Notes under the pieces: generated by a model
The model's input: the letters and a program-made list of their open reading frames with translations, nothing else
The model's database searches: none
What the model was told of the DNA's origin: nothing
Shown: positions 19,489-32,972 of the stretch, one piece after another
How the letters are laid out: each line of letters begins with the position of its first letter
How positions within the stretch are numbered: position 1 is the stretch's first letter
DNA from: Escherichia phage IME178
Length of the DNA: 64,000 bases
Sequence record: NC_104190.1
Reading direction: 5' to 3' (one strand)
Position numbers and translations under genes: made by a program

Positions 19489-19504
19489 AACGTTTCCTTA
19501 AAGT

Positions 19505-19580
19505 TGGAGCGGCTAGAGGGAATCGAACCCTACTCAGCGAGGCTTGGAAGGCCTGCGACACAACCCGTGTGCTTAACCGC
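19505..19580 (-). tRNA. tRNA-Gly (anticodon UCC), tentative
   Basis: Hand-folded: acceptor GCGGTTA/TAGCCGC, loop CTTCCAA, encoded CCA. Confidence 0.55.
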
Positions 19581-19588
19581 TTATTATT

Positions 19589-19664
19589 TGGCTGGAGAAG
19601 GAGGAATCGAACCTACCATTAACGGAGTCAAAGGCCGTTGTGCTAACCGTTACACTACTCTCCA
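19589..19664 (-). tRNA. tRNA-Gln (anticodon UUG)
   Basis: Starts with U and ends CCAGCCA like E. coli tRNA-Gln; loop CTTTGAC. Confidence 0.6.
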
Positions 19665-19670
19665 ATTATT

Positions 19671-19746
19671 TGGCTGGGATGCCACGGATCGAACGTGGAA
19701 CCTTCGGAGTCAGAGGCCGACGATCTGCCAATTGATCTACATCCCA
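19671..19746 (-). tRNA. tRNA-Gln (anticodon CUG)
   Basis: Acceptor TGGGATG/CATCCCA, loop CTCTGAC, 3-prime end GCCA. Confidence 0.6.
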
Positions 19747-19758
19747 ATAATTTTTATT

Positions 19759-19953
19759 CTACGGAAAAATTGTTGTTGGCTCAGATTCTTCCAAACGTTT
19801 GCCTTCATGATCTACTCGAATAACTCCGCATCCCTCGCAAATCACAACAGCACCGTAGCCTTCTTTAACTTCAGCTTCTGTAATCAAACCAGAAAGATCA
19901 CCAGTATCTCTGCCCCACATATCAATGGAGCATTGTTTGCAGAAATCAGCCAT
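19759..19953 (-). CDS. Cys-rich hypothetical protein (64 aa)
   Basis: CxxC pairs (CKQC, CEGC). Confidence 0.4.
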   Translation of the reverse strand: MADFCKQCSIDMWGRDTGDLSGLITEAEVKEGYGAVVICEGCGVIRVDHEGKRLEESEPTTIFP

Positions 19954-19977
19954 ATTTATTTCCTATTTAAGTTAATT

Positions 19978-20054
19978 TGGGGTGGCTAGTGGAATTCGAA
20001 TCCACATAGGCCTGATTCACAATCAGGATCATTAACCAATTATGATATAGCCAC
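19978..20054 (-). tRNA. tRNA-His (anticodon GUG)
   Basis: Acceptor GTGGCTA/TAGCCAC, anticodon arm CCTGA-TTGTGAA-TCAGG, encoded CCA. Confidence 0.7.
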
Positions 20055-20420
20055 AATTGAAAACTCGCAGGGTTAGCGAAACCTTCCTCAATTAGCATGT
20101 TCTAGAATACTAATCAAGTTATCTCCTATTGCGCGCAGCTCAAGACGAGTACGAATTTTCAATTGTGGCGGCTCTCAGAAACTCTTCTACTCTAGTCTTA
20201 GCAGCTTACTCCCGAACGCATGTCGGGGAAGTCTTACCAAGAGCATCAAATAGCACCGTTACACTTTGAGCCATAGATGTATCAAGAAGCAGAAGGACTT
20301 GAACCTTCACGAGATAGACCATTTATCTCAGCCGCTTTATGAGGTATGTTGCAGGGAGTGGATGTTCCCTATAAACCTTTTAGGCAGCCCCGTCTACCGA
20401 TTCCGGCATACTTCAAGATT

Positions 20421-20515
20421 TGGAGGTAGGTAAGGGGATCGAACCCTTACACCGTATCACTACGATCAACCGATTTCAAGTCGGAGTCCAGCGCCAGCCA
20501 TTGGATTGACCTACC
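20421..20515 (-). tRNA. tRNA-Ser (anticodon UGA), type II
   Basis: Acceptor GGTAGGT/ACCTACC, loop CTTGAAA, long variable arm, encoded CCA. Confidence 0.65.
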
Positions 20516-20527
20516 ATATAAATTGTT

Positions 20528-20618
20528 TGGCGGAAGAGGAGAGATTTGAACTCTCAAGCCGTTTTACCAGTCAGCCACTTTCCAAGCGGTTTTCGTCGCC
20601 AATTCGATTTGCTCTTCC
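20528..20618 (-). tRNA. type II tRNA, probably Ser (anticodon GGA)
   Basis: Acceptor GGAAGAG/CTCTTCC, T-arm GAGAGTTCAAATCTCTC, long variable arm. Confidence 0.55.
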
Positions 20619-20654
20619 AATAATAAGATGATGCCTCTATCACACCAGGCAGTT

Positions 20655-20730
20655 ACGCCCCGCTGGGATTCGAACCCATTAAAACAGCTCAACCGAGATA
20701 GTAGGTTTAATTTACTCTGACCATCAAATT
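20655..20730 (-). other. tRNA-like element, possible pseudo-tRNA
   Basis: Perfect T-arm-like GGGTTCGAATCCC but no acceptor stem could be paired by hand. Confidence 0.3.
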
Positions 20731-20807
20731 TGGTGCGTGACAAGGGATTCGAACCCTCAAAACCCGACTTCTAAGGACGGTATGTATGCCCATTCCATCA
20801 ATCACGC
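20731..20807 (-). tRNA. tRNA with UAG anticodon loop (Leu-type) but short variable arm
   Basis: Acceptor GCGTGAT/GTCACGC, loop CTTAGAA, 77 nt with CCA; one T-T mismatch in anticodon stem. Confidence 0.5.
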
Positions 20808-20812
20808 GTATT

Positions 20813-20891
20813 TGGTGGAGAATAACGGAATCGAACCGTTCTGATGTCCTCGGTGCAAGCGAGGTGTCCACTCCATGCAGACCCATTCCCC
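20813..20891 (-). tRNA. tRNA-Ala (anticodon UGC)
   Basis: Anticodon arm CCTCG-CTTGCAC-CGAGG, encoded CCA. Confidence 0.65.
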
Positions 20892-21150
20892 AAATTCTTT
20901 AGTTTACTAAGGCTATTAGCTCGGCGTAACTACAGCACCTTCGCTTAGAGCGGAAGGAACTACGTCATCTCGCAAACCCAATACACTATTCAGTTGCCGC
21001 TGAATCTAGTGGACCAATCTAGAACTTCTCCCGAATCGTAGGGATCGTGCTTTTTGGCAGCCAGTCCTAGGTCGAGCTAATACCTTAGTGAACTATGATG
21101 AGGATTTCTCCTCATCAATTTATATAAATATTATAACAAGAAATTAAGCA

Positions 21151-21510
21151 TCAAGCAAGTACATTTTTGCAGACTTCTTGTATTTCCTTAACATCGCTAA
21201 TGAAAAGGTAATCGGAACTTCCAGAGTGCATACTAGACATTAGTACACCACTATCTGGTGCATCTTCTTTTAACGTAATGCCTAACCAGAACTCGGCAAA
21301 ACTAGGTGTTACCTCACCTTGACTTGCCTTGAATACATCGGCTTCTGTGATCTCCTGACCAGTAGAAAGTCCCATGTACGGTACGTTCAGATCAATATCT
21401 TTGTAGAACTCAGCTAAATCTTGTTCGAAGTCCCAACCTTTAGAGATAGCGAACTCCATTGTCACATGACCGAAATAACCTTGAATCTTGCTTGATAATT
21501 GCATTTGCAA
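21151..21510 (-). CDS. hypothetical protein (119 aa)
   Basis: ORF between tRNA blocks, promoter motif upstream. Confidence 0.45.
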   Translation of the reverse strand: MQMQLSSKIQGYFGHVTMEFAISKGWDFEQDLAEFYKDIDLNVPYMGLSTGQEITEADVFKASQGEVTPSFAEFWLGITLKEDAPDSGVLMSSMHSGSSDYLFISDVKEIQEVCKNVLA

Positions 21511-21529
21511 TTCCTTATTTTGAGTTAAT

Positions 21530-21603
21530 TGGTACCCGGTGATAGAATCGAACTATTTCAACCGCCATGTAAAGACGGGGTTCTCCCATTAAACTAACCG
21601 AGC
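21530..21603 (-). tRNA. tRNA-Val (anticodon UAC)
   Basis: Anticodon arm CCGTC-TTTACAT-GGCGG, encoded CCA. Confidence 0.6.
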
Positions 21604-21607
21604 AAAT

Positions 21608-21686
21608 TGGTAGATCGCCTGGGACTTGAACCCAGAACCTTCCGATTAAAAGTCGGATGCTACTAAACCTATTGAGCTAGCGATCT
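21608..21686 (-). tRNA. tRNA-Lys (anticodon UUU)
   Basis: Anticodon arm TCCGA-CTTTTAA-TCGGA, T-arm GGGTTCAAGTCCC, CCA. Confidence 0.65.
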
Positions 21687-21687
21687 A

Positions 21688-21855
21688 TTAGTAACCATTG
21701 TATACTTCTTTAATAGAGTGAACTTTCAAGTAAGGGTGATTAGTACTAAACTCTGCCATTACTTCATCCCAATTTCTACCATAATGAGCAAGTAAGGATT
21801 TTGATGTATTCTTACCTAAGCGTTTGTCACTTACTACTAATCGAAATACTTTCAT
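21688..21855 (-). CDS. small hypothetical protein (about 55 aa)
   Basis: ATG with GAGGAT RBS between tRNA genes; below the ORF-track size cutoff. Confidence 0.3.
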   Translation of the reverse strand: MKVFRLVVSDKRLGKNTSKSLLAHYGRNWDEVMAEFSTNHPYLKVHSIKEVYNGY

Positions 21856-22200: not shown

Positions 22201-22653
22201 TTTGCTTTCCTTCTCTTCACTTTATAAAATATATTATACAGATAATTAAGAGAAATAGCAAATGAATTTTTAATAAATTTACTTATTGTGTAGGCCACCT
22301 GGAGGCTACCAACCCCACGGCTGACAAAGAAGTTTGCGAGACCTCTCTTAAATGCCAGAATAGACCCGCCGATCTATCGGAACCTACATAATAAGTAAAC
22401 TTTATAGTGTCATTCTAGACAGGACTCGAACCTATTATCACTTGTGCGGACTTACGAGAACCATTCTTTCACTCGAATCGAACGAGCTTCTGCCCTAGCC
22501 AAGCTGGTTTCCCCATCAACCACGCTAGAATGTTTGATTGTTTTCAGTGCAAGAGTCCGAGTCTTGGACACGACCGCTTTGCAAGTACATAGGCAGCTTA
22601 TCATGAGTCAGCACTTCCGAATTGCTAGCTCCGTGTTCTGCACTGAAATTTTA

Positions 22654-26037: not shown

Positions 26038-26114
26038 TGGTAGGGGTGGTGGGATTCGAACCCACAAAACCTGAATTTTAAGTCCAGTACCTATGCCAAT
26101 TCGATTACACCCCC
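26038..26114 (-). tRNA. tRNA with UAA anticodon loop (Leu-type) but short variable arm
   Basis: Acceptor GGGGGTG/CACCCCT, anticodon arm CTGGA-CTTAAAA-TTCAG, T-arm GTGGG-TTCGAAT-CCCAC, 5-nt variable loop, CCA. Confidence 0.55.
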
Positions 26115-26619: not shown

Positions 26620-26697
26620 TGGTGGCTCCCCGAGGATTCGAACCTACGTACCTTCCGGTTATGAGCCGGGTGCTCATACCATATGAGCTTGAGAACC
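26620..26697 (-). tRNA. tRNA with CAU anticodon (Met, fMet or Ile2)
   Basis: D-stem GCTC/GAGC, anticodon arm CCGG-CTCATAA-CCGG, CCA; T-stem weak. Confidence 0.5.
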
Positions 26698-28984: not shown

Positions 28985-29066
28985 CTTACCGACCGTAGGA
29001 TTCGAACCTACATCTTCCACCAGTTACGGCTTGATAATACCAATTATACTAGGACGGCAGTGTTAC
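28985..29066 (-). other. tRNA-like element, possible pseudo-tRNA
   Basis: T-arm GTAGG-TTCGAAT-CCTAC and D-arm-like AGTATAATTGG, but no anticodon stem found and no CCA. Confidence 0.3.
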
Positions 29067-29171: not shown

Positions 29172-29606
29172 TTAGAAAAATTCGCTAGCAATCAAAGCAG
29201 TTGTTTTACCATCATAACGCCCTGGAAACTCTGCCTTAATGGTTTTCATTAAGAGAGCTTTGGTGATACCGGGGTTTAGCTTAACCAGTTCTGCAAAATA
29301 CTTACGAATTTCAGTTTCAGTCAGTTGACTTGGCTGATACTCTTGCAGCATGGAATAAAGCAGTTGCTCATAGTCTACATCAGCAGGAACTTTCGTACCA
29401 ACTTTAATAGTGCGCTGTTTTGCATTTTCTAAAGCCTTAATCTGAGCTTTCAGATAGGCTACGAACTCGGTTCGAGTAATAATGTCTTTATCAATACGTT
29501 GCAAATCACCAATCATGGTCTGAAGATTAAGCGCCCGCTCTTTATCACCGTGAGTACGTGCTAGACTAAGCAGTCCACGAAGGGTCATTAGGATATTTTC
29601 ACCCAT
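29172..29606 (-). CDS. hypothetical protein (144 aa)
   Basis: ORF; ATG overlaps the stop of the upstream small ORF. Confidence 0.5.
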   Translation of the reverse strand: MGENILMTLRGLLSLARTHGDKERALNLQTMIGDLQRIDKDIITRTEFVAYLKAQIKALENAKQRTIKVGTKVPADVDYEQLLYSMLQEYQPSQLTETEIRKYFAELVKLNPGITKALLMKTIKAEFPGRYDGKTTALIASEFF

Positions 29607-29776
29607 TATTTCATCCCCAATGCTTGGTTAAAAGATTGCTCTGTCATAACTGCTGAGACTTTGGCGAAATCAAACTTTTTAGGGTTCGTAGTGATTTCAG
29701 CAACGTTAGAAGTTTTAACAGTTTTCGTAGTACGAATACCGCGAGTGTTAACACCAATAATTACAACTGATTTCAT
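29606..29776 (-). CDS. small hypothetical protein (56 aa)
   Basis: ATG 29776 with GAGAGGAAG RBS in the conserved leader; stop overlaps next gene's ATG. Confidence 0.4.
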   Translation of the reverse strand: MKSVVIIGVNTRGIRTTKTVKTSNVAEITTNPKKFDFAKVSAVMTEQSFNQALGMK

Positions 29777-29844
29777 ATTTCGCTTCCTCTCATTAATTTA
29801 TGGAAGTATTATACGGAAATTTAAGTATTTAAGCAAGTAAATTT

Positions 29845-30312
29845 TTAAGTTTTAGTGACAACAGGTTTATAAAACGTATGTCCCTTAATCTTAGTTGTTT
29901 TCTTAAATTTCTTTGTCCAGTAAGGTTTATCTTTACCACTATGGAAGTATAGTGCTCCATGTGTAGGATCTTGTGGTAAATCAACGTAGTATATCACTCT
30001 AGCTAAATTCTTAGCGGTTTGCCAAGCCTCATCAGTTTTATCAACTTTTGGTCTCTTAGATACCCAAGAGAACTGGTTAGACTGATATACTACTTTACAG
30101 TAGGAATCTGGGAATTTACCGGAGTTTACACGGTTTTTAGTAACATGTGCAATCGCCGTCATCCCCTTTATGCCCTCACCACGACTTTCGAAATAGATAT
30201 TTTTAGCAATGCAATCTATTTCTTTTGCATCGTGCGATGCCTGACTACTAAAGCTGAAGGTAAGGGCAGCTACTAAAAGCAAAGCTGCCTTCATTCTTTT
30301 TACTCCTGCCAA
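29845..30312 (-). CDS. secreted cell-wall hydrolase (SleB-like)
   Basis: Signal peptide MKAALLLVAALTFSFSSQA; body resembles SleB/hydrolase-2 family by memory. Confidence 0.55.
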   Translation of the reverse strand: MAGVKRMKAALLLVAALTFSFSSQASHDAKEIDCIAKNIYFESRGEGIKGMTAIAHVTKNRVNSGKFPDSYCKVVYQSNQFSWVSKRPKVDKTDEAWQTAKNLARVIYYVDLPQDPTHGALYFHSGKDKPYWTKKFKKTTKIKGHTFYKPVVTKT

Positions 30313-30617
30313 TCATATTCAACACGATTGGGGTTTTCTTTATACCCTAAGTCAAGCAAATCATTACGCATAGTTTGCTTAGCTACTGGGTTCGAGGTTA
30401 CTAGTACCACTTTCTTTGGTCTCTGCCCAAATTCTAAGAGTAAACGAAGAATTTGATAACCTTCCATACCATCTACAGCCAAGTCATTATCCATATAAAC
30501 GAAATGGCCTGTGGTATCAGTTTTATTCAGAAACTCTATAGCGGCTTCTGGGGTTCGAATGATAATGTCCATTCCGTGAAGATTACGCACATCATCAATC
30601 AAAATATGAAAAGTCAT
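30300..30617 (-). CDS. stand-alone receiver-like (CheY/REC-like) domain protein
   Basis: Alternating beta/alpha pattern with DD (LIDDV), D (YMDNDL) and T (VVLVTS) at REC positions. Confidence 0.45.
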   Translation of the reverse strand: MTFHILIDDVRNLHGMDIIIRTPEAAIEFLNKTDTTGHFVYMDNDLAVDGMEGYQILRLLLEFGQRPKKVVLVTSNPVAKQTMRNDLLDLGYKENPNRVEYDWQE

Positions 30618-31059
30618 AATAGCCTCGTTTCATCAATTTAAAAATATATTATACAGATAACTTAGTAAATTAGCAAATACATTTTTAAATTGTGAAACTA
30701 GTAAACCGATAAACAGCCTAGAGGCGCCACAGGCCATATCTTATGAGCCATGTACCTTTAATCTAGGGTTTGAATCATCAACGAATACTTTGCATCTTTT
30801 AGCTTTAGAAGTTTAGAAGTTTGAGTTCTTTAAACTTTTCAGCTTTCATACTTAAATGTTGATCTTTGAAGTTGTGTCGGTAATATCAACGACGCTTTGT
30901 TCTTACGTGTCAGCTTAAAAGGCTGGTGTAATAAACATAATCTCCAATAGATTATACTTTATAGTATGGTCAGCGGTCCTATTTAACCTCGTATTTCAAC
31001 CGCTGCTGCGAGGTAAGATGCTTGGGCTTTCGTCTACCGATTTACTAGCTTTTAAATTA

Positions 31060-31413
31060 TTACTCTACTTCAATGAAGGTAGAGGCGTTAGACTCGGACA
31101 GAACAAAGTCAACATTTGTTGCAAAGTCCTGATATTCCTCGTCATGCTGCTTAATCAGCTTTTCCAGTTCCAGCGGATCAATCAAGAATGGAGTATTCTT
31201 GAGTTCCAGCAGGTTGAGCTGCATTTTAACTTCATCTTCGGAAGTTTTTCTTATCGCGGGTAGCCATGCTATCCTGCAAACGCTCATATTTAGCATCAAA
31301 CTGTGCTTTCTGCGTATTAAACTTAACCGTGGCGGCATGGAACTGCTTACGCATGTTAGCCAGCAGTTGGGCTTTAAGTTCCATAGAACGCTTAGCTTCA
31401 ATTGCTTCCGCAA
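31060..31413 (-). CDS. hypothetical protein, probable C-terminal fragment
   Basis: Overlaps the upstream ORF by 182 nt in another frame; frames meet at an A5 run. Confidence 0.4.
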   Translation of the reverse strand: MRKQLKLSVLWNLKPNCWLTCVSSSMPPRLSLIRRKHSLMLNMSVCRIAWLPAIRKTSEDEVKMQLNLLELKNTPFLIDPLELEKLIKQHDEEYQDFATNVDFVLSESNASTFIEVE

Positions 31414-31699
31414 CAGTCATCTTACGAGAGCCAATCTCAACGATTGTTTCCGCATTGCTTTTAATCAGAGCAGCTTTGATACGATCACGCTGGGACATCA
31501 TATCCAGCAGAGACTGGAAATCAGTCTTAATACGAGTAGACAGATCAGCTACTTCGATTGCAGCGCCAACTACAACCTGGTTTTTATCCTTACCTTCACC
31601 AACAGCGATCAGAAGCTGCTGTTCAGTAGCTTTACGGATTTTAGCTTCCAGAGATTTGATAGTTGCCAGAGCGCGAGTTTTAGAAATACGAGTAGTCAT
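31232..31699 (-). CDS. hypothetical coiled-coil protein (155 aa)
   Basis: ORF with charged helical composition. Confidence 0.5.
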   Translation of the reverse strand: MTTRISKTRALATIKSLEAKIRKATEQQLLIAVGEGKDKNQVVVGAAIEVADLSTRIKTDFQSLLDMMSQRDRIKAALIKSNAETIVEIGSRKMTVAEAIEAKRSMELKAQLLANMRKQFHAATVKFNTQKAQFDAKYERLQDSMATRDKKNFRR

Positions 31700-31752
31700 T
31701 ATTTGCTTCCTTATATGAAGTTTGAGATTTGAATTTGTTTAAAGTTGGCCTA

Positions 31753-31935
31753 TTACAGACCAATTGCCAGCAGAGTGCGCAGAACAGTATCATTACTGTT
31801 ATCAATTTTAGGATTAGCACGATTTAGCAGATCAAAGATTTTCTGGATACCTGATTGACGTTCAGCCATACAACGGATACCCAGATTACGAGTAGCTTTC
31901 TTACCATTTTTACGAACATTTTTAGATACTGGCAT
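31753..31935 (-). CDS. small basic protein (60 aa)
   Basis: Lys/Arg-rich ORF. Confidence 0.4.
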   Translation of the reverse strand: MPVSKNVRKNGKKATRNLGIRCMAERQSGIQKIFDLLNRANPKIDNSNDTVLRTLLAIGL

Positions 31936-32005
31936 ATATGTTTTCCTTTTATTGTTTTCTCAAATTTATGAATATATTATACAGAATTTTGGGGCCGGAA
32001 GCAAA

Positions 32006-32707
32006 TCAAATTTTCATTTTTTCGATCATAGCTGCAACACAATAGCTTTCAACTAAGGCATCAAATGCAGGGTCATGCTTAGCTGGATAGATCCCATAAC
32101 GAATAGTGTCCATCTTCTCCATTTTAGCTATTGCCCAGCTAATACCTTCGGTCTCTAGAGCTTTATAACTGTACCCAGCTTGCATCCAGAGATTACGAAG
32201 AGATCGAACATTACCCAAATTCCAGAATTTCCACGGAACTACCTCTTCATTAGTTCCAGCATGGAACGTGTTTGCAGAGTAGATAGTCATATCAAACTCT
32301 GGACCATTGCCATAATACAAAGCATTTTCGCCTAGAGCCAACTCCATAATATTTTGAGCCATAGAGAAGGCAGCATAGTTTGAGCCAAATTTATTAGTGC
32401 AATTATGTTTACCATTTTGGAAGGCAATCAGTTTTGGATTACGTTCTTTCATGGCTTCCATAATGTGGATAGCAGACGGGCTATTTTTAGCTTGATCCAT
32501 CCAGAATGCTAGAGTAGATGCTGTAACTTTGGCACCAGAATTAAGCTGATCCTGCACATCCAAAGTAGCAAATACTAAGTCAGGGTCTTTATCAATCCCA
32601 TGCATAGCCACAAAAGCGAAAGAAGGCATTACGATATGAGTAGTACCACAATCTCCTGGAGTTCCTAGAGATTCAATATCTAGCATACCAAATGGTTTTA
32701 CTTTCAT
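32006..32707 (-). CDS. DEDD-type 3-prime to 5-prime exonuclease (DexA-like)
   Basis: N-terminal MLDIESLG (Exo I-like DxE) and C-terminal H/D motifs, like T4 DexA. Confidence 0.55.
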   Translation of the reverse strand: MKVKPFGMLDIESLGTPGDCGTTHIVMPSFAFVAMHGIDKDPDLVFATLDVQDQLNSGAKVTASTLAFWMDQAKNSPSAIHIMEAMKERNPKLIAFQNGKHNCTNKFGSNYAAFSMAQNIMELALGENALYYGNGPEFDMTIYSANTFHAGTNEEVVPWKFWNLGNVRSLRNLWMQAGYSYKALETEGISWAIAKMEKMDTIRYGIYPAKHDPAFDALVESYCVAAMIEKMKI

Positions 32708-32735
32708 AACTTATCCTTTATTGTGTAGAAAACTA

Positions 32736-32972
32736 TTAAAGAGCTGTCTCTTTAATAGACTCCCACTTCTTGGGGTCTTTAAAACCAGGAAGCATATCCT
32801 CACTGACATCCCAGTTCTCTTCCATAGAGAAGTCGGGCCAGTCATTCCAGCTACCTTCCAGCTCTTCATAACAGGTATCCATTACTTCATGACTAGAAAG
32901 TCGTGTATAATCCCTAGCGGACTTATGGGTGCTAGCACGGTTAAAATCATTCTTTGCTACAAAATTACGCAT
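32736..32972 (-). CDS. hypothetical acidic protein (78 aa)
   Basis: ORF in array. Confidence 0.4.
   Translation of the reverse strand: MRNFVAKNDFNRASTHKSARDYTRLSSHEVMDTCYEELEGSWNDWPDFSMEENWDVSEDMLPGFKDPKKWESIKETAL

What the first reader, a model, noticed from the sequence alone, without database searches (positions are those of the whole stretch)
20055..20420. 365-bp ORF-free, tRNA-free segment inside the tRNA cluster with inverted repeats
No ORF and no complete cloverleaf, but an inverted repeat (CAATTGAAAACTCG at 20053 and CGAATTTTCAATTG near 20147), a GGTTAGCGAAACC hairpin and a T-arm-like GAAGGTTCAAGTCCTTC without matching acceptor stem. Could be a small structured RNA or decayed tRNAs.
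Basis: seen in the sequence. Interest (0 to 1): 0.45.

Follow-up and report, generated by a model that had tools for sequence, protein, structure and literature searches.

The report
Three known T5 stable RNAs
The gap between tRNA-Ser and tRNA-His in this T5-like phage holds the three small "stable RNAs" long annotated in phage T5 (a tRNA-Leu look-alike, a rod-shaped RNA ending in CCA, and an excised hairpin); they are real and structurally conserved, but already known and still of unknown function.

Summary
The window is a T5-like phage (99.8% to phage Es2). On the minus strand, 20055-20420 lies exactly between tRNA-Ser(UGA) (20421-20515) and tRNA-His (19978-20055). It is collinear with three misc_RNA features annotated in T5, Salmonella phage 5 and DT57C as "stable RNA with unknown functions".

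- **RNA1 (20273-20417):** a class-II, tRNA-Leu(UAA)-derived cloverleaf. A 41-nt structured insert replaces the anticodon loop, and there is no CCA. Twelve base pairs show compensatory changes.
- **RNAI (20166-20272):** an irregular rod closed by GGCUC/GAGCC and ending in GCCA.
- **RNAIII (20056-20161):** the interior of a 20-bp stem that pairs RNAI's GCCA end with the 5' end of tRNA-His. Five unrelated interiors occupy this slot in relatives. The stem always persists, with 9 of 16 pairs compensatory.

The annotated RNAIII ends sit in this stem with a 2-nt 3' overhang, which suggests RNase III. This is an inference.

The claim that the T-arm lacks a matching acceptor stem does not. T5 mutants deleted for the region are viable.

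Verdict: real, under selection for structure, already known, function unresolved. Interest is modest.

The parts
20273..20417 (-). RNA1: a tRNA-Leu(UAA)-derived, class-II tRNA-like stable RNA of 145 nt. It starts 3 nt after the CCA of tRNA-Ser(UGA), ends at the 5' end of RNAI, and has no CCA.
   Evidence: It is collinear with T5 misc_RNA rna1, 'tRNA-like stable RNA with unknown functions', at 85% identity to T5. RNAalifold gives a cloverleaf. On the 17-sequence alignment 96.9% of cells are paired and 12 pairs show compensatory change, with 0 of 500 shuffles reaching this.
20286..20414 (-). RNA1 acceptor-like stem. GAAGUA (20409-20414) pairs with UGCUUC (20286-20291). After a UU/UU mismatch it is extended by C-G, U-A and A-U (20417-20419 with 20281-20283).
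   Evidence: Five of the six core pairs show changes on both sides across relatives. ARAGORN intron mode draws the same stem.
20390..20406 (-). RNA1 D arm, CCG-GAAUCGGUAGA-CGG.
   Evidence: It is invariant in 17 sequences. The 13-mer GGAAUCGGUAGAC is identical to E. coli leuZ tRNA-Leu(UAA).
20331..20388 (-). RNA1 expanded 'anticodon arm'. A 5-bp stem GCUGC/GCGGC encloses the 41-nt insert (20339-20379). Inside are helix H2 AGGU/ACCU and helix H3 (U)AGGGA/UCCCU(G), which carries the near-invariant 8-nt loop ACAUCCAC (20358-20365).
   Evidence: Compensatory changes are seen at pairs 35-92, 38-89, 45-81, 53-70, 54-69 and 55-68. ARAGORN -i reports a 40-41 nt 'intron'. In T5 its removal leaves the loop CUUAAAA, which is Leu(UAA).
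20311..20329 (-). RNA1 long variable-arm hairpin, GAGAUA-AAUGGUC-UAUCUC.
   Evidence: Predicted. The variant GAGUUA...UAACUC in L032, L035, L036 and L043 keeps the pair, A-U to U-A.
20292..20308 (-). RNA1 T arm, GAAGG-UUCAAGU-CCUUC.
   Evidence: GGUUCAAGUCC is identical to E. coli leuZ.
20166..20272 (-). RNAI: a 107-nt stable RNA. It is an irregular rod-like hairpin closed by GGCUC/GAGCC, followed by discriminator G and an encoded CCA.
   Evidence: It is collinear with T5 misc_RNA rnaI at 92% identity. The 107-nt Tequintavirus type and the 100-nt Epseptimavirus type share only nt 1-20 and the last 22 nt, yet both fold as rods. In the rod model 99.3% of cells are paired and the changes are mostly G-U transitions.
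20162..20165 (-). A 4-nt spacer, CAAU, between the CCA of RNAI and the annotated 5' end of RNAIII. It lies inside the processing stem.
   Evidence: T5 annotation mapped onto the window.
20056..20161 (-). RNAIII: a 106-nt stable RNA. It forms a three-way junction (including the 12-bp hairpin CUUGAUUAGUAU/AUGCUAAUUGAG and the GGUU-UCGCU-AACC hairpin) closed by the long stem.
   Evidence: It is collinear with T5 misc_RNA rnaIII at 98% identity. MFE is -36.4 kcal/mol with z = -4.86. It is found in 281 phage records, all at 90% identity or more.
20050..20169 (-). Precursor processing stem of 20 contiguous base pairs, arms 20150-20169 and 20050-20069. It pairs the 3' GCCA of RNAI plus CAAUUGAAAAUUCGUA with UGCGAGUUUUCAAUUG plus UGGC (nt 2-5 of tRNA-His).
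   Evidence: Inverted repeat. The fold has dG -48.8 and z = -5.87 and is retained in the 451-nt precursor fold. Five unrelated interiors keep the stem, with 96.9% paired and 9 of 16 pairs compensatory.
19978..20055 (-). Flanking tRNA-His(GUG). 20055 is the extra 5' nucleotide U(-1) included in the T5 annotation.
20421..20515 (-). Flanking tRNA-Ser(UGA), missed by ARAGORN at default settings.
   Evidence: ARAGORN -ps90 finds it. The Rfam tRNA-Sec model scores 37.6 bits, below threshold. It is annotated as tRNA-Ser in relatives.

Best explanation
The interval encodes three non-coding 'stable RNAs' already described for phage T5. They are co-transcribed with the flanking tRNAs on the minus strand and cut out of the polycistronic precursor by host tRNA-processing enzymes.

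**RNA1** is a former tRNA-Leu(UAA) gene.
- It keeps the D loop, T loop, long variable arm and acceptor helix, so it should still fold into the tRNA L-shape.
- Its anticodon loop is replaced by a 41-nt, three-helix extension with a near-invariant 8-nt loop.
- It has no discriminator A or CCA, so it cannot decode or be charged. It is a tRNA mimic, not a tRNA.

**RNAI** is a rod-like hairpin with a tRNA-like acceptor end (5 bp, then G, then CCA). Its 5' end is presumably made by RNase P and its 3' end by trimming back to CCA.

**RNAIII** is the excised interior of a 20-bp double-stranded stem.
- In the precursor this stem ties the CCA end of RNAI to the 5' strand of the tRNA-His acceptor.
- The annotated RNAIII ends lie in the stem with a 2-nt 3' overhang. 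The most likely scenario is a staggered RNase III cut.
- That cut would release RNAI, free tRNA-His to fold, and leave its 5' end at U(-1).
- RNase E cutting after AAU, combined with RNase P, is the alternative.

**What is shown:** identity with the T5 RNAs, the secondary structures, their evolutionary maintenance, the modular gain, loss and swapping of the elements, and dispensability in the laboratory.

**What is inferred:** the enzymes involved and any function. My best guess is as follows. The stem is a cis-acting processing and insulation device for tRNA-His. RNAIII and RNAI are stable products of that processing. RNA1 acts in trans as a tRNA mimic on an unknown host factor.
For: **Identity**
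- The window is 99.8% identical to a Tequintavirus.
- The segment aligns end to end with T5 RNA1, RNAI and RNAIII.
- The same features are annotated in Salmonella phage 5 and DT57C.
- RNA1 occurs in 491 phage records, RNAI in 304 and RNAIII in 281.

**RNA1**
- RNAalifold gives a cloverleaf, with 12 compensatory pairs, 96.9% paired, 0 of 500 shuffles reaching this, and slid controls of 1-4.
- Between the window and T5, six pairs differ and none is broken.
- ARAGORN intron mode gives a class-II tRNA with a 40-41 nt insert, read as Leu(UAA) in T5.
- The D-loop 13-mer and T-loop 11-mer are identical to E. coli leuZ.
- The RNA1 covariance model's best other hit in the window is tRNA-Leu(UAA), at 28.3 bits against 15.9 or less for the other tRNAs.

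**RNAI**
- The ends are conserved, the core diverges, and both sequence types fold as rods.

**Stem and RNAIII**
- An 18-nt inverted repeat forms a 20-bp stem with z = -5.9.
- Five unrelated interiors of 34 to 139 nt all keep the stem, with 9 of 16 pairs compensatory.

**Transcription and coding**
- No sigma-70-like promoter lies on the minus strand in 19500-21700.
- No ORF is conserved here. The one PHROG hit is broken by a polymorphic stop codon.

**Dispensability**
- T5-123 (deletion 29191-32442), which spans T5 RNA1, RNAI and RNAIII at 30284-30644, is viable (PMC11464382; coordinates).

**Precedents**
- T4 has two stable RNAs at the end of its tRNA operon.
- E. coli 3'ETS-leuZ is a functional tRNA-spacer RNA (annotation seen).
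Against: - No expression or end-mapping data were available here. 'Stable RNA' and the exact ends rest on GenBank annotation, and I could not read the original papers.
- RNase III is inferred only from stem length and overhang geometry. The 3' end of RNAIII coincides with the expected RNase P site of tRNA-His. An AAU| context, as at the RNA1 5' end, fits RNase E equally well.
- RNAI folding energy is not exceptional (z = -1.4 and -0.3). Its covariation support is weak, with one two-sided pair per type.
- All three elements can be missing or replaced in viable relatives. RNA1 is absent in DT57C and L034, and RNAIII is replaced in L008, L020, L033 and L045. The region is deletable in T5. Any function is therefore accessory.
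- No target or partner was identified for the conserved RNA1 loop.
Confidence: 0.8

Rival explanations
1. These are neutral relics. The segment would be decayed tRNA genes and spacer junk that accumulate only because tRNA-like ends and tight hairpins resist nucleases, with no selected role in cis or in trans.
For: - RNA1 has lost its anticodon loop, discriminator and CCA.
- Each element is absent or replaced in some viable phages.
- T5 deletion mutants that lack the region grow.
- RNA1 and RNAI evolve faster than the flanking tRNAs, at 85% and 92% identity against identical tRNA-His.
Against: - RNA1 has 12 compensatory pairs, including three in the insert-specific helix H3, and none of the pairs that differ between the window and T5 is broken.
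- The 8-nt loop, D loop, T loop and variable arm are invariant across three genera.
- Nine of 16 pairs of the RNAIII-slot stem are compensatory across unrelated interiors.
- T5-type RNAIII is at least 90% identical in all 281 records.
- Neutral decay would have broken these helices.
Confidence: 0.12
2. RNA1, and perhaps RNAI, is a trans-acting tRNA decoy or inhibitor aimed at a host tRNA-directed factor. Candidates are a tRNA-cleaving defence nuclease, a tRNA-modifying or processing enzyme, or LeuRS, by analogy with T5 tRNAs that neutralise PARIS.
For: - The tRNA core is under structural selection while decoding and charging features are lost.
- RNA1 is conserved in phages of Escherichia, Salmonella and Klebsiella.
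- The T5 tRNA region is documented as an anti-defence locus: tRNA-Lys acts against PARIS (PMC11464382).
- The region is dispensable in defence-free laboratory hosts, as expected for an accessory counter-defence gene.
Against: - No partner or target was identified.
- The anticodon loop, which is the usual target of anticodon nucleases, is exactly the part that was replaced.
- No experimental phenotype is known.
- The PARIS-rescue fragment mapped elsewhere, to 31885-32870.
Confidence: 0.18
3. RNA1 is an intron-containing tRNA-Leu gene whose insert is removed to give a working tRNA.
For: - ARAGORN intron mode finds a tRNA. In T5, removing 40 nt leaves a perfect CUUAAAA Leu(UAA) loop on an intact stem.
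- Other viral contigs carry tRNA-Leu-like genes with inserts that pass the Rfam tRNA threshold.
Against: - In the window, Sepoy and Sealy types, no excision restores a natural anticodon loop. ARAGORN's best call for them is AAA, an anticodon not normally used.
- There is a U1-U72 mismatch, U at position 73, and no CCA.
- Forty-one nt is far too short for a group I intron, and no intron family is hit in Rfam.
- E. coli has no protein tRNA-splicing endonuclease (established knowledge).
- T5 annotates the full 144-nt species as the stable product.
Confidence: 0.03
4. The segment encodes small proteins, as several GenBank records annotate ('hypothetical protein' in Es2, MM-2, Sepoy_076, gmork_122).
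For: - Automated annotations exist.
- A 24-aa ORF inside RNAIII matches phrog_24969 at E = 7e-12.
Against: - No ORF of 60 aa or more is present.
- The PHROG-type ORF is cut by a TGA in the window and in T5. It is open only where RNAI reads CGGAGAGCC instead of CUGAGAGCC.
- Substitutions follow base-pairing rather than codon structure.
- The three other ORFs have no PHROG hit.
Confidence: 0.02

Closest known systems
Phage T5 stable RNAs RNA1, RNAI and RNAIII (GenBank AY543070, NC_005859, AY692264; also Salmonella phage 5 AJ604531 and DT57C KM979354)
   Same: They have the same position between tRNA-Ser1 and tRNA-His, the same order, the same lengths (145/144, 107, 106 nt), and 85%, 92% and 98% identity. 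These are the same genes.
   Different: T5 carries an extra 174-bp ORF (T5.063) between tRNA-Ser1 and RNA1. The window lacks it, so RNA1 starts 3 nt after the tRNA-Ser CCA. The window's RNA1 has several compensatory differences and an 8-nt sequence, CUCAUAAA, where T5 has CUUAAAA.
Phage T4 species 1 (rnaC, 139 nt) and species 2 (rnaD, 119 nt) stable RNAs
   Same: They are small stable RNAs of unknown function placed inside or at the end of a phage tRNA operon. rnaC carries a tRNA-like T arm and is weakly called Leu(UAA)-like by relaxed ARAGORN. rnaD ends in an encoded CCA followed by a short A/U spacer, as RNAI does. A role for RNase III in T4 tRNA-cluster processing is on record (McClain 1979, cited in PMC4810235).
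   Different: There is no detectable sequence similarity; only 7-nt chance words match. The phage family differs. They are analogues, not homologues.
Bacterial tRNA-Leu(UAA), e.g. E. coli leuZ, and the phage's own tRNA-Leu(UAA) at 26038-26114
   Same: RNA1 shares the class-II architecture. The D-loop GGAAUCGGUAGAC and the T-loop GGUUCAAGUCC are identical to leuZ. The phage tRNA-Leu(UAA) is the best non-self hit of the RNA1 model. T5 RNA1 keeps a CUUAAAA loop sequence.
   Different: RNA1 has a 41-nt structured insert in the anticodon loop, a U-U pair at the top of the acceptor stem, and no A73 or CCA. It scores below the Rfam tRNA threshold (23.8 bits in L045).
RNase III processing stems (rRNA operon stems, T7 early mRNA sites)
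   Same: The stem is about 20 bp of double-stranded RNA formed by sequences flanking an excised RNA. The product ends are staggered with a 2-nt 3' overhang.
   Different: Cleavage by RNase III was not demonstrated. The 3' cut coincides with an RNase P site.
tRNA-precursor spacer RNAs with their own function (E. coli 3'ETS-leuZ)
   Same: It is a stable fragment released from a tRNA operon transcript by processing (annotated). It is a precedent showing that such 'by-products' can act in trans.
   Different: There is no sequence similarity to E. coli. No sRNA-sponge pairing was examined.

Membership tests
T5 stable RNAs RNA1 / RNAI / RNAIII | Sequence homology and collinearity with the annotated T5 misc_RNA features between tRNA-Ser1 and tRNA-His | tested here: met
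   The end-to-end alignment gives 85%, 92% and 98% identity with the same order and lengths.
T5 stable RNAs RNA1 / RNAI / RNAIII | Accumulation as discrete stable RNA species in infected cells | not testable with these tools
   This rests on the GenBank note 'stable RNA with unknown functions'. No expression data were available.
Canonical tRNA (Rfam RF00005 / ARAGORN default) | Cloverleaf with D arm, T arm and a paired acceptor stem | tested here: met
   This holds for RNA1 only. All arms are present and the acceptor stem covaries. RNAI and RNAIII are not cloverleaves.
Canonical tRNA (Rfam RF00005 / ARAGORN default) | 7-nt anticodon loop on a 5-bp stem, and a score above the family threshold | tested here: not met
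   A 41-nt insert sits in the loop. There is no ARAGORN call at default settings and no Rfam hit even at E<=10.
Canonical tRNA (Rfam RF00005 / ARAGORN default) | Seven-bp acceptor stem followed by a discriminator and a 3' CCA (encoded in the other tRNAs of this cluster) | tested here: not met
   RNA1 has a U1-U72 mismatch, U at position 73, and UGAUAC in place of CCA. RNAI does have G plus CCA but no cloverleaf.
Intron-containing tRNA (group I intron type) | Group I catalytic core within the insert | tested here: not met
   The insert is 40-41 nt. No intron family is hit in Rfam at gathering score or at E<=10.
Intron-containing tRNA (any type) | Removing the insert restores a 7-nt loop with a natural anticodon in all homologues | tested here: not met
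   Only T5 gives CUUAAAA. For the window, Sepoy and Sealy types the best ARAGORN call is AAA, not a natural anticodon.
RNase III substrate | About two turns (20 bp or more) of double-stranded RNA around the cleavage site | tested here: met
   There are 20 contiguous base pairs in the predicted precursor fold. The stem is maintained by covariation.
RNase III substrate | Staggered cleavage that leaves 2-nt 3' overhangs, dependent on rnc | tested here: inconclusive
   The annotated RNAIII ends (5' UGAAAA......UUCAAU 3') give a 2-nt 3' overhang in the stem. Enzyme dependence cannot be tested here. RNase P and RNase E could produce the same ends.
Any curated Rfam family other than tRNA | A covariance-model match | tested here: not met
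   Nothing lies in 20055-20420 at E<=10. Nothing was found for the alternative spacer types either.
T4 species 1 / species 2 RNAs | Sequence homology to rnaC or rnaD | tested here: not met
   Only 7-nt words match at E>1. The resemblance is positional and architectural only.

The most novel reading that the evidence does not exclude
RNA1 may not be a dead tRNA. It may be a selected tRNA-Leu mimic, with the elbow and variable arm kept and the anticodon arm rebuilt into a three-helix rod with an invariant ACAUCCAC loop. Such an RNA would act in trans on a host tRNA-directed factor, for example as a decoy or inhibitor of a defence nuclease. The RNAIII slot may be an RNase III 'gate' that holds tRNA-His unfolded until it is cut and so sets its unusual U(-1) 5' end. 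A pattern scan found more than 100 unrelated viral contigs carrying class-II tRNA-Leu scaffolds with 36-61 extra nucleotides. T5 RNA1 could therefore be the first characterised member of a wider, unrecognised class of phage non-coding RNAs built on a tRNA scaffold.
Probability: 0.15. Interest if true: 0.7.

Novelty: already known. Interest (0 to 1): 0.3.

Why it matters
These RNAs have carried the label 'unknown function' for as long as the records seen here go back (the T5 records; from memory, the RNAs were first described in the 1980s). They are missing from most of the roughly 490 T5-like genome annotations, and some records mis-call them as proteins.

The comparative evidence here shows that their folds are under selection. 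It also gives concrete hypotheses that can be tested: an RNase III-gated tRNA-His 5' end, and a non-chargeable tRNA-Leu mimic.

The T5 tRNA region is now known to carry counter-defence functions, such as tRNA-Lys against PARIS. A trans-acting role for RNA1 would therefore be of current interest. As a discovery, however, the locus is not new.

Tried and rejected
- **Rfam.** I searched at gathering score and at E<=10 on the region, and on loci with alternative spacers. Only the flanking tRNAs were found.
- **Host origin.** blastn of RNA1 and of RNAI+RNAIII against 5,426 E. coli genomes gave no match.
- **Repeated or mobile element.** The RNA1 insert is not repeated in the window: 5 hits at up to 3 mismatches against 2.9 expected, with only the self hit exact. 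There is no second CAATTGA...TCAATTG hairpin.
- **Antisense target of the RNA1 loop.** GTGGATGT occurs 5 times on the + strand against 1.5 expected, and one of these is the locus itself. This is suggestive at best and I did not pursue it.
- **Protein-coding.** There is no conserved ORF. The single PHROG hit is explained by mis-annotation.
- **Spliceable tRNA.** Rejected for lack of a restorable anticodon loop and lack of a CCA.
- **RNAI as a cloverleaf.** ARAGORN finds nothing even with introns allowed and a relaxed threshold. I could not build a convincing D or T arm by hand.
- **Homology between the RNA1 insert and inserts in other viral tRNA-Leu-like genes.** None was found. Three regex matches proved coincidental.
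- **Homology to T4 rnaC or rnaD.** None.
- **Literature.** The original T5 papers and the T5 genome paper are not in the held library. Nothing turned up on T5 stable-RNA function or on short inserts in phage tRNAs.
Full report
**What the window is.**
- The 901 bases around the finding are 99.8% identical to Escherichia phage Es2. They are 98-99% identical to many Tequintavirus genomes.
- The finding lies in the minus-strand tRNA cluster.
- Its lower boundary is tRNA-His(GUG), 19978-20054.
- Its upper boundary is a tRNA-Ser(UGA) gene at 20421-20515. ARAGORN misses this gene at default settings and finds it at a relaxed threshold. It is annotated in relatives.
- So 20055-20420 is exactly the tRNA-Ser to tRNA-His spacer.

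**Checking the observation.**
- No standard tRNA call and no Rfam family falls in the interval, even at E<=10.
- No ORF reaches 60 aa.
- The inverted repeat is real and longer than reported. It is 18 nt at 94% complementarity, arms 20050-20067 and 20152-20169.
- The GGTTAGCGAAACC hairpin (20071-20083) and the T-arm-like motif (20292-20308) are present.
- The claim that the T arm lacks an acceptor stem is wrong; see RNA1 below.

**Identity.**
- T5 records AY543070 and AY692264 annotate three misc_RNA features in this same spacer:
  - RNAIII, 106 nt, next to tRNA-His;
  - RNAI, 107 nt;
  - RNA1, 144 nt, 'tRNA-like stable RNA with unknown functions'.
- The window aligns with them end to end. Identities are 85% for RNA1, 92% for RNAI and 98% for RNAIII.
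- The mapped coordinates are RNA1 20417->20273, RNAI 20272->20166, a CAAU spacer at 20165-20162, and RNAIII 20161->20056.
- The same features are annotated in Salmonella phage 5 and in DT57C, which lacks RNA1.
- Most other records leave the spacer blank or call 'hypothetical proteins' there.
- In the phage collection, RNA1 is found in 491 records, including 71 Klebsiella phages. T5-type RNAI is in 304. T5-type RNAIII is in 281, every one at 90% identity or more.

**RNA1.**
- I aligned 17 distinct sequences from Tequintavirus, Epseptimavirus and Klebsiella phage Sealy. RNAalifold predicts a cloverleaf with these parts:
  - acceptor stem GAAGUA/UGCUUC;
  - a D arm;
  - a 5-bp 'anticodon' stem GCUGC/GCGGC;
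  - a long variable-arm hairpin;
  - T arm GAAGG-UUCAAGU-CCUUC.
- The anticodon stem encloses 48 nt instead of 7. This region contains two further helices, and the distal one carries the near-invariant loop ACAUCCAC.
- On the stated structure, 96.9% of cells are paired. Twelve pairs change on both sides. No shuffle out of 500 reaches this, and slid controls give 1-4.
- Six pairs differ between the window and T5, and none is broken.
- ARAGORN finds nothing at default settings. In intron mode it calls a class-II tRNA with a 40-41 nt insert. In T5 the remainder is tRNA-Leu(UAA) with loop CUUAAAA.
- The D-loop 13-mer and the T-loop 11-mer are identical to E. coli leuZ.
- A covariance model of RNA1 scores the phage's own tRNA-Leu(UAA) second in the window, at 28.3 bits against 15.9 or less for the other tRNAs.
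- RNA1 has a U-U pair at positions 1-72, U at position 73, and no CCA. In most variants no excision restores a natural anticodon loop.
- It is therefore a structurally maintained tRNA-Leu mimic. It is neither a tRNA nor a spliceable pre-tRNA.

**RNAI.**
- Two sequence types exist: 107 nt in Tequintavirus and 100 nt in Epseptimavirus. They share only the first 20 and last 22 nt.
- Both fold as irregular rods closed by GGCUC/GAGCC, followed by G and an encoded CCA.
- Within the 107-nt type, 99.3% of cells in the rod model are paired. Substitutions are mostly G-U transitions, with one two-sided change.
- The 100-nt type has two compensatory pairs in the apical hairpin.
- Folding energies are unremarkable, z = -1.4 and -0.3. 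This model is only moderately supported.
- The acceptor-like end with CCA makes RNase P (5' end) and exonucleolytic trimming (3' end) the expected maturation route. This is an inference from established tRNA and 4.5S RNA processing.

**RNAIII and the stem.**
- On the RNA, the inverted repeat pairs GCCA-CAAUUGAAAAUUCG with CGAGUUUUCAAUUG-UGGC.
- It therefore ties the 3' GCCA of RNAI to nucleotides 2-5 of tRNA-His across the whole of RNAIII.
- The precursor segment folds with 20 contiguous base pairs, dG -48.8 kcal/mol and z = -5.9.
- This stem persists in the fold of the full 451-nt Ser-to-His precursor. That precursor separates into three independent domains.
- Relatives carry five unrelated interiors in this slot: 34, 69, 112, 127 and 139 nt. 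All are closed by a stem that begins CAAUUG.
- On the 16-nt arms, 96.9% of cells pair and 9 of 16 pairs are compensatory.
- The annotated RNAIII termini lie 8 bp above the base of the stem and leave a 2-nt 3' overhang. That is the geometry of RNase III cleavage (established knowledge). I infer that RNase III excises RNAIII, releases RNAI with a 4-nt tail, and frees tRNA-His with its 5' end at U(-1).
- The alternative is RNase E plus RNase P. RNase E would cut after AAU, and the same AAU| context lies 3 nt after the tRNA-Ser CCA at the RNA1 5' end. RNase P would cut at tRNA-His.
- The interior of T5-type RNAIII is unusually conserved, but it offers too little variation to test its three-way junction.

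**Transcription, coding and dispensability.**
- No sigma-70-like promoter lies on the minus strand between 19500 and 21700. The only terminator-like hits there are the RNA1 T arm and a weak site in RNAIII. This is consistent with co-transcription with the tRNAs.
- A 24-aa ORF inside RNAIII hits phrog_24969. That family corresponds to gene calls such as Sepoy_076, which run from RNAI into RNAIII.
- In the window and in T5 the frame is closed by a TGA created by a CUGAG/CGGAG polymorphism. The ORF is therefore spurious.
- T5-123 carries a deletion of 29191-32442, which covers 30284-30644 where the three RNAs lie. It is viable and was used in the PARIS study. The region is a known deletion hotspot (PMC11464382; PMC11974808).

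**Comparison with known systems.**
- The closest analogues outside the family are the T4 species 1 and species 2 RNAs. They sit at the end of the T4 tRNA operon. One has a tRNA-like T arm and the other an encoded CCA, and neither shows sequence similarity to the T5 RNAs.
- E. coli 3'ETS-leuZ (annotation) shows that tRNA-spacer fragments can act in trans.
- No host homologue of the three RNAs exists in E. coli genomes.

**Verdict.**
- The locus is already known as the T5 stable RNAs RNA1, RNAI and RNAIII.
- What this analysis adds:
  - covariation-backed structures;
  - the tRNA-Leu(UAA) ancestry of RNA1;
  - the 20-bp stem linking the RNAI CCA end to the tRNA-His 5' end, with its RNase III-like product geometry;
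  - the cassette-like turnover of the RNAIII slot.
- Function remains unknown.
- I favour a cis processing role for the stem and a trans tRNA-mimic role for RNA1, both with low confidence.

Noticed in passing
Many are class-II tRNA-Leu-like genes with 36-61 extra nucleotides in the anticodon or variable region. Several pass the Rfam tRNA threshold as 116-139-nt 'tRNAs'. A recurrent subgroup has the acceptor GUCAGG/CCUGAC with A73. The inserts are unrelated to the RNA1 insert, and ARAGORN's anticodon calls for them are scattered. I found no paper describing them.
   Followed up: partly
window 20421-20515, 20528-20618, 19505-19580, 26620-26697 (minus strand): Four tRNA genes fall below ARAGORN's default threshold and appear only with -ps90: tRNA-Ser(UGA), tRNA-Ser(GGA), tRNA-Gly(UCC) and a CAU-anticodon tRNA. 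Rfam at gathering score also misses both tRNA-Ser genes. The window's tRNA count is therefore under-reported by default scans.
   Followed up: partly
window 20619-20730 (minus strand): The 112-nt spacer between tRNA-Leu(UAG) and tRNA-Ser(GGA) is 98% conserved in DT57C and Salmonella phage 5 and is unannotated. It contains a T-arm-like UGGGUUCGAAUCCCA with no obvious cloverleaf. In T5 the HNH endonuclease gene hegC occupies this position.
   Followed up: partly
window 20088-20162 (minus strand); L007:434-595: phrog_24969 ('unknown function') appears to be a protein family built from gene calls laid over the RNAI/RNAIII genes. The frame is open only in phages whose RNAI reads CGGAGAGCC, and is closed by a TGA in the window and in T5.
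   Followed up: yes
L033 (IMGVR_UViG_2974655256), between RNA1 and RNAI; L005/L015 (Klebsiella phage Sealy type), flanking RNA1: Some relatives carry additional ORF-free elements in the same operon. L033 has an extra stretch of about 110 nt between RNA1 and RNAI. In Sealy-type phages, about 190 nt upstream and about 250 nt downstream of RNA1 are non-coding and end in a terminator. These may be further stable RNAs.
   Followed up: no
window 22463-22530 and 28986-29059 (minus strand): Relaxed ARAGORN calls weak tRNA-like genes here. They are roughly where T5 annotates other stable or tRNA-like RNAs (RNA2/RNAIV and the RNAX region). The rest of the T5 stable-RNA set (RNA2H, RNAIV, RNA2, RNA3, RNAX) probably also lies in this window, but I did not map it.
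   Followed up: no
window 20731-20807 and 26038-26114 (minus strand): Both phage tRNA-Leu genes (UAG and UAA) are 77 nt long and have no long variable arm, which is unusual for bacterial-type tRNA-Leu. RNA1, the Leu-derived mimic, does keep a long variable arm.
   Followed up: no
L006 (Klebsiella phage vB_Kpn_3, MZ079855), locus positions about 700-790: In this partial, gapped record, the 5' two-thirds of a tRNA-Ser(GCU)-like gene is fused to the RNA1 T arm and 3' acceptor strand. It is followed by an Epseptimavirus-type RNAI. This is either recombination at the T arm or an assembly chimera.
   Followed up: no
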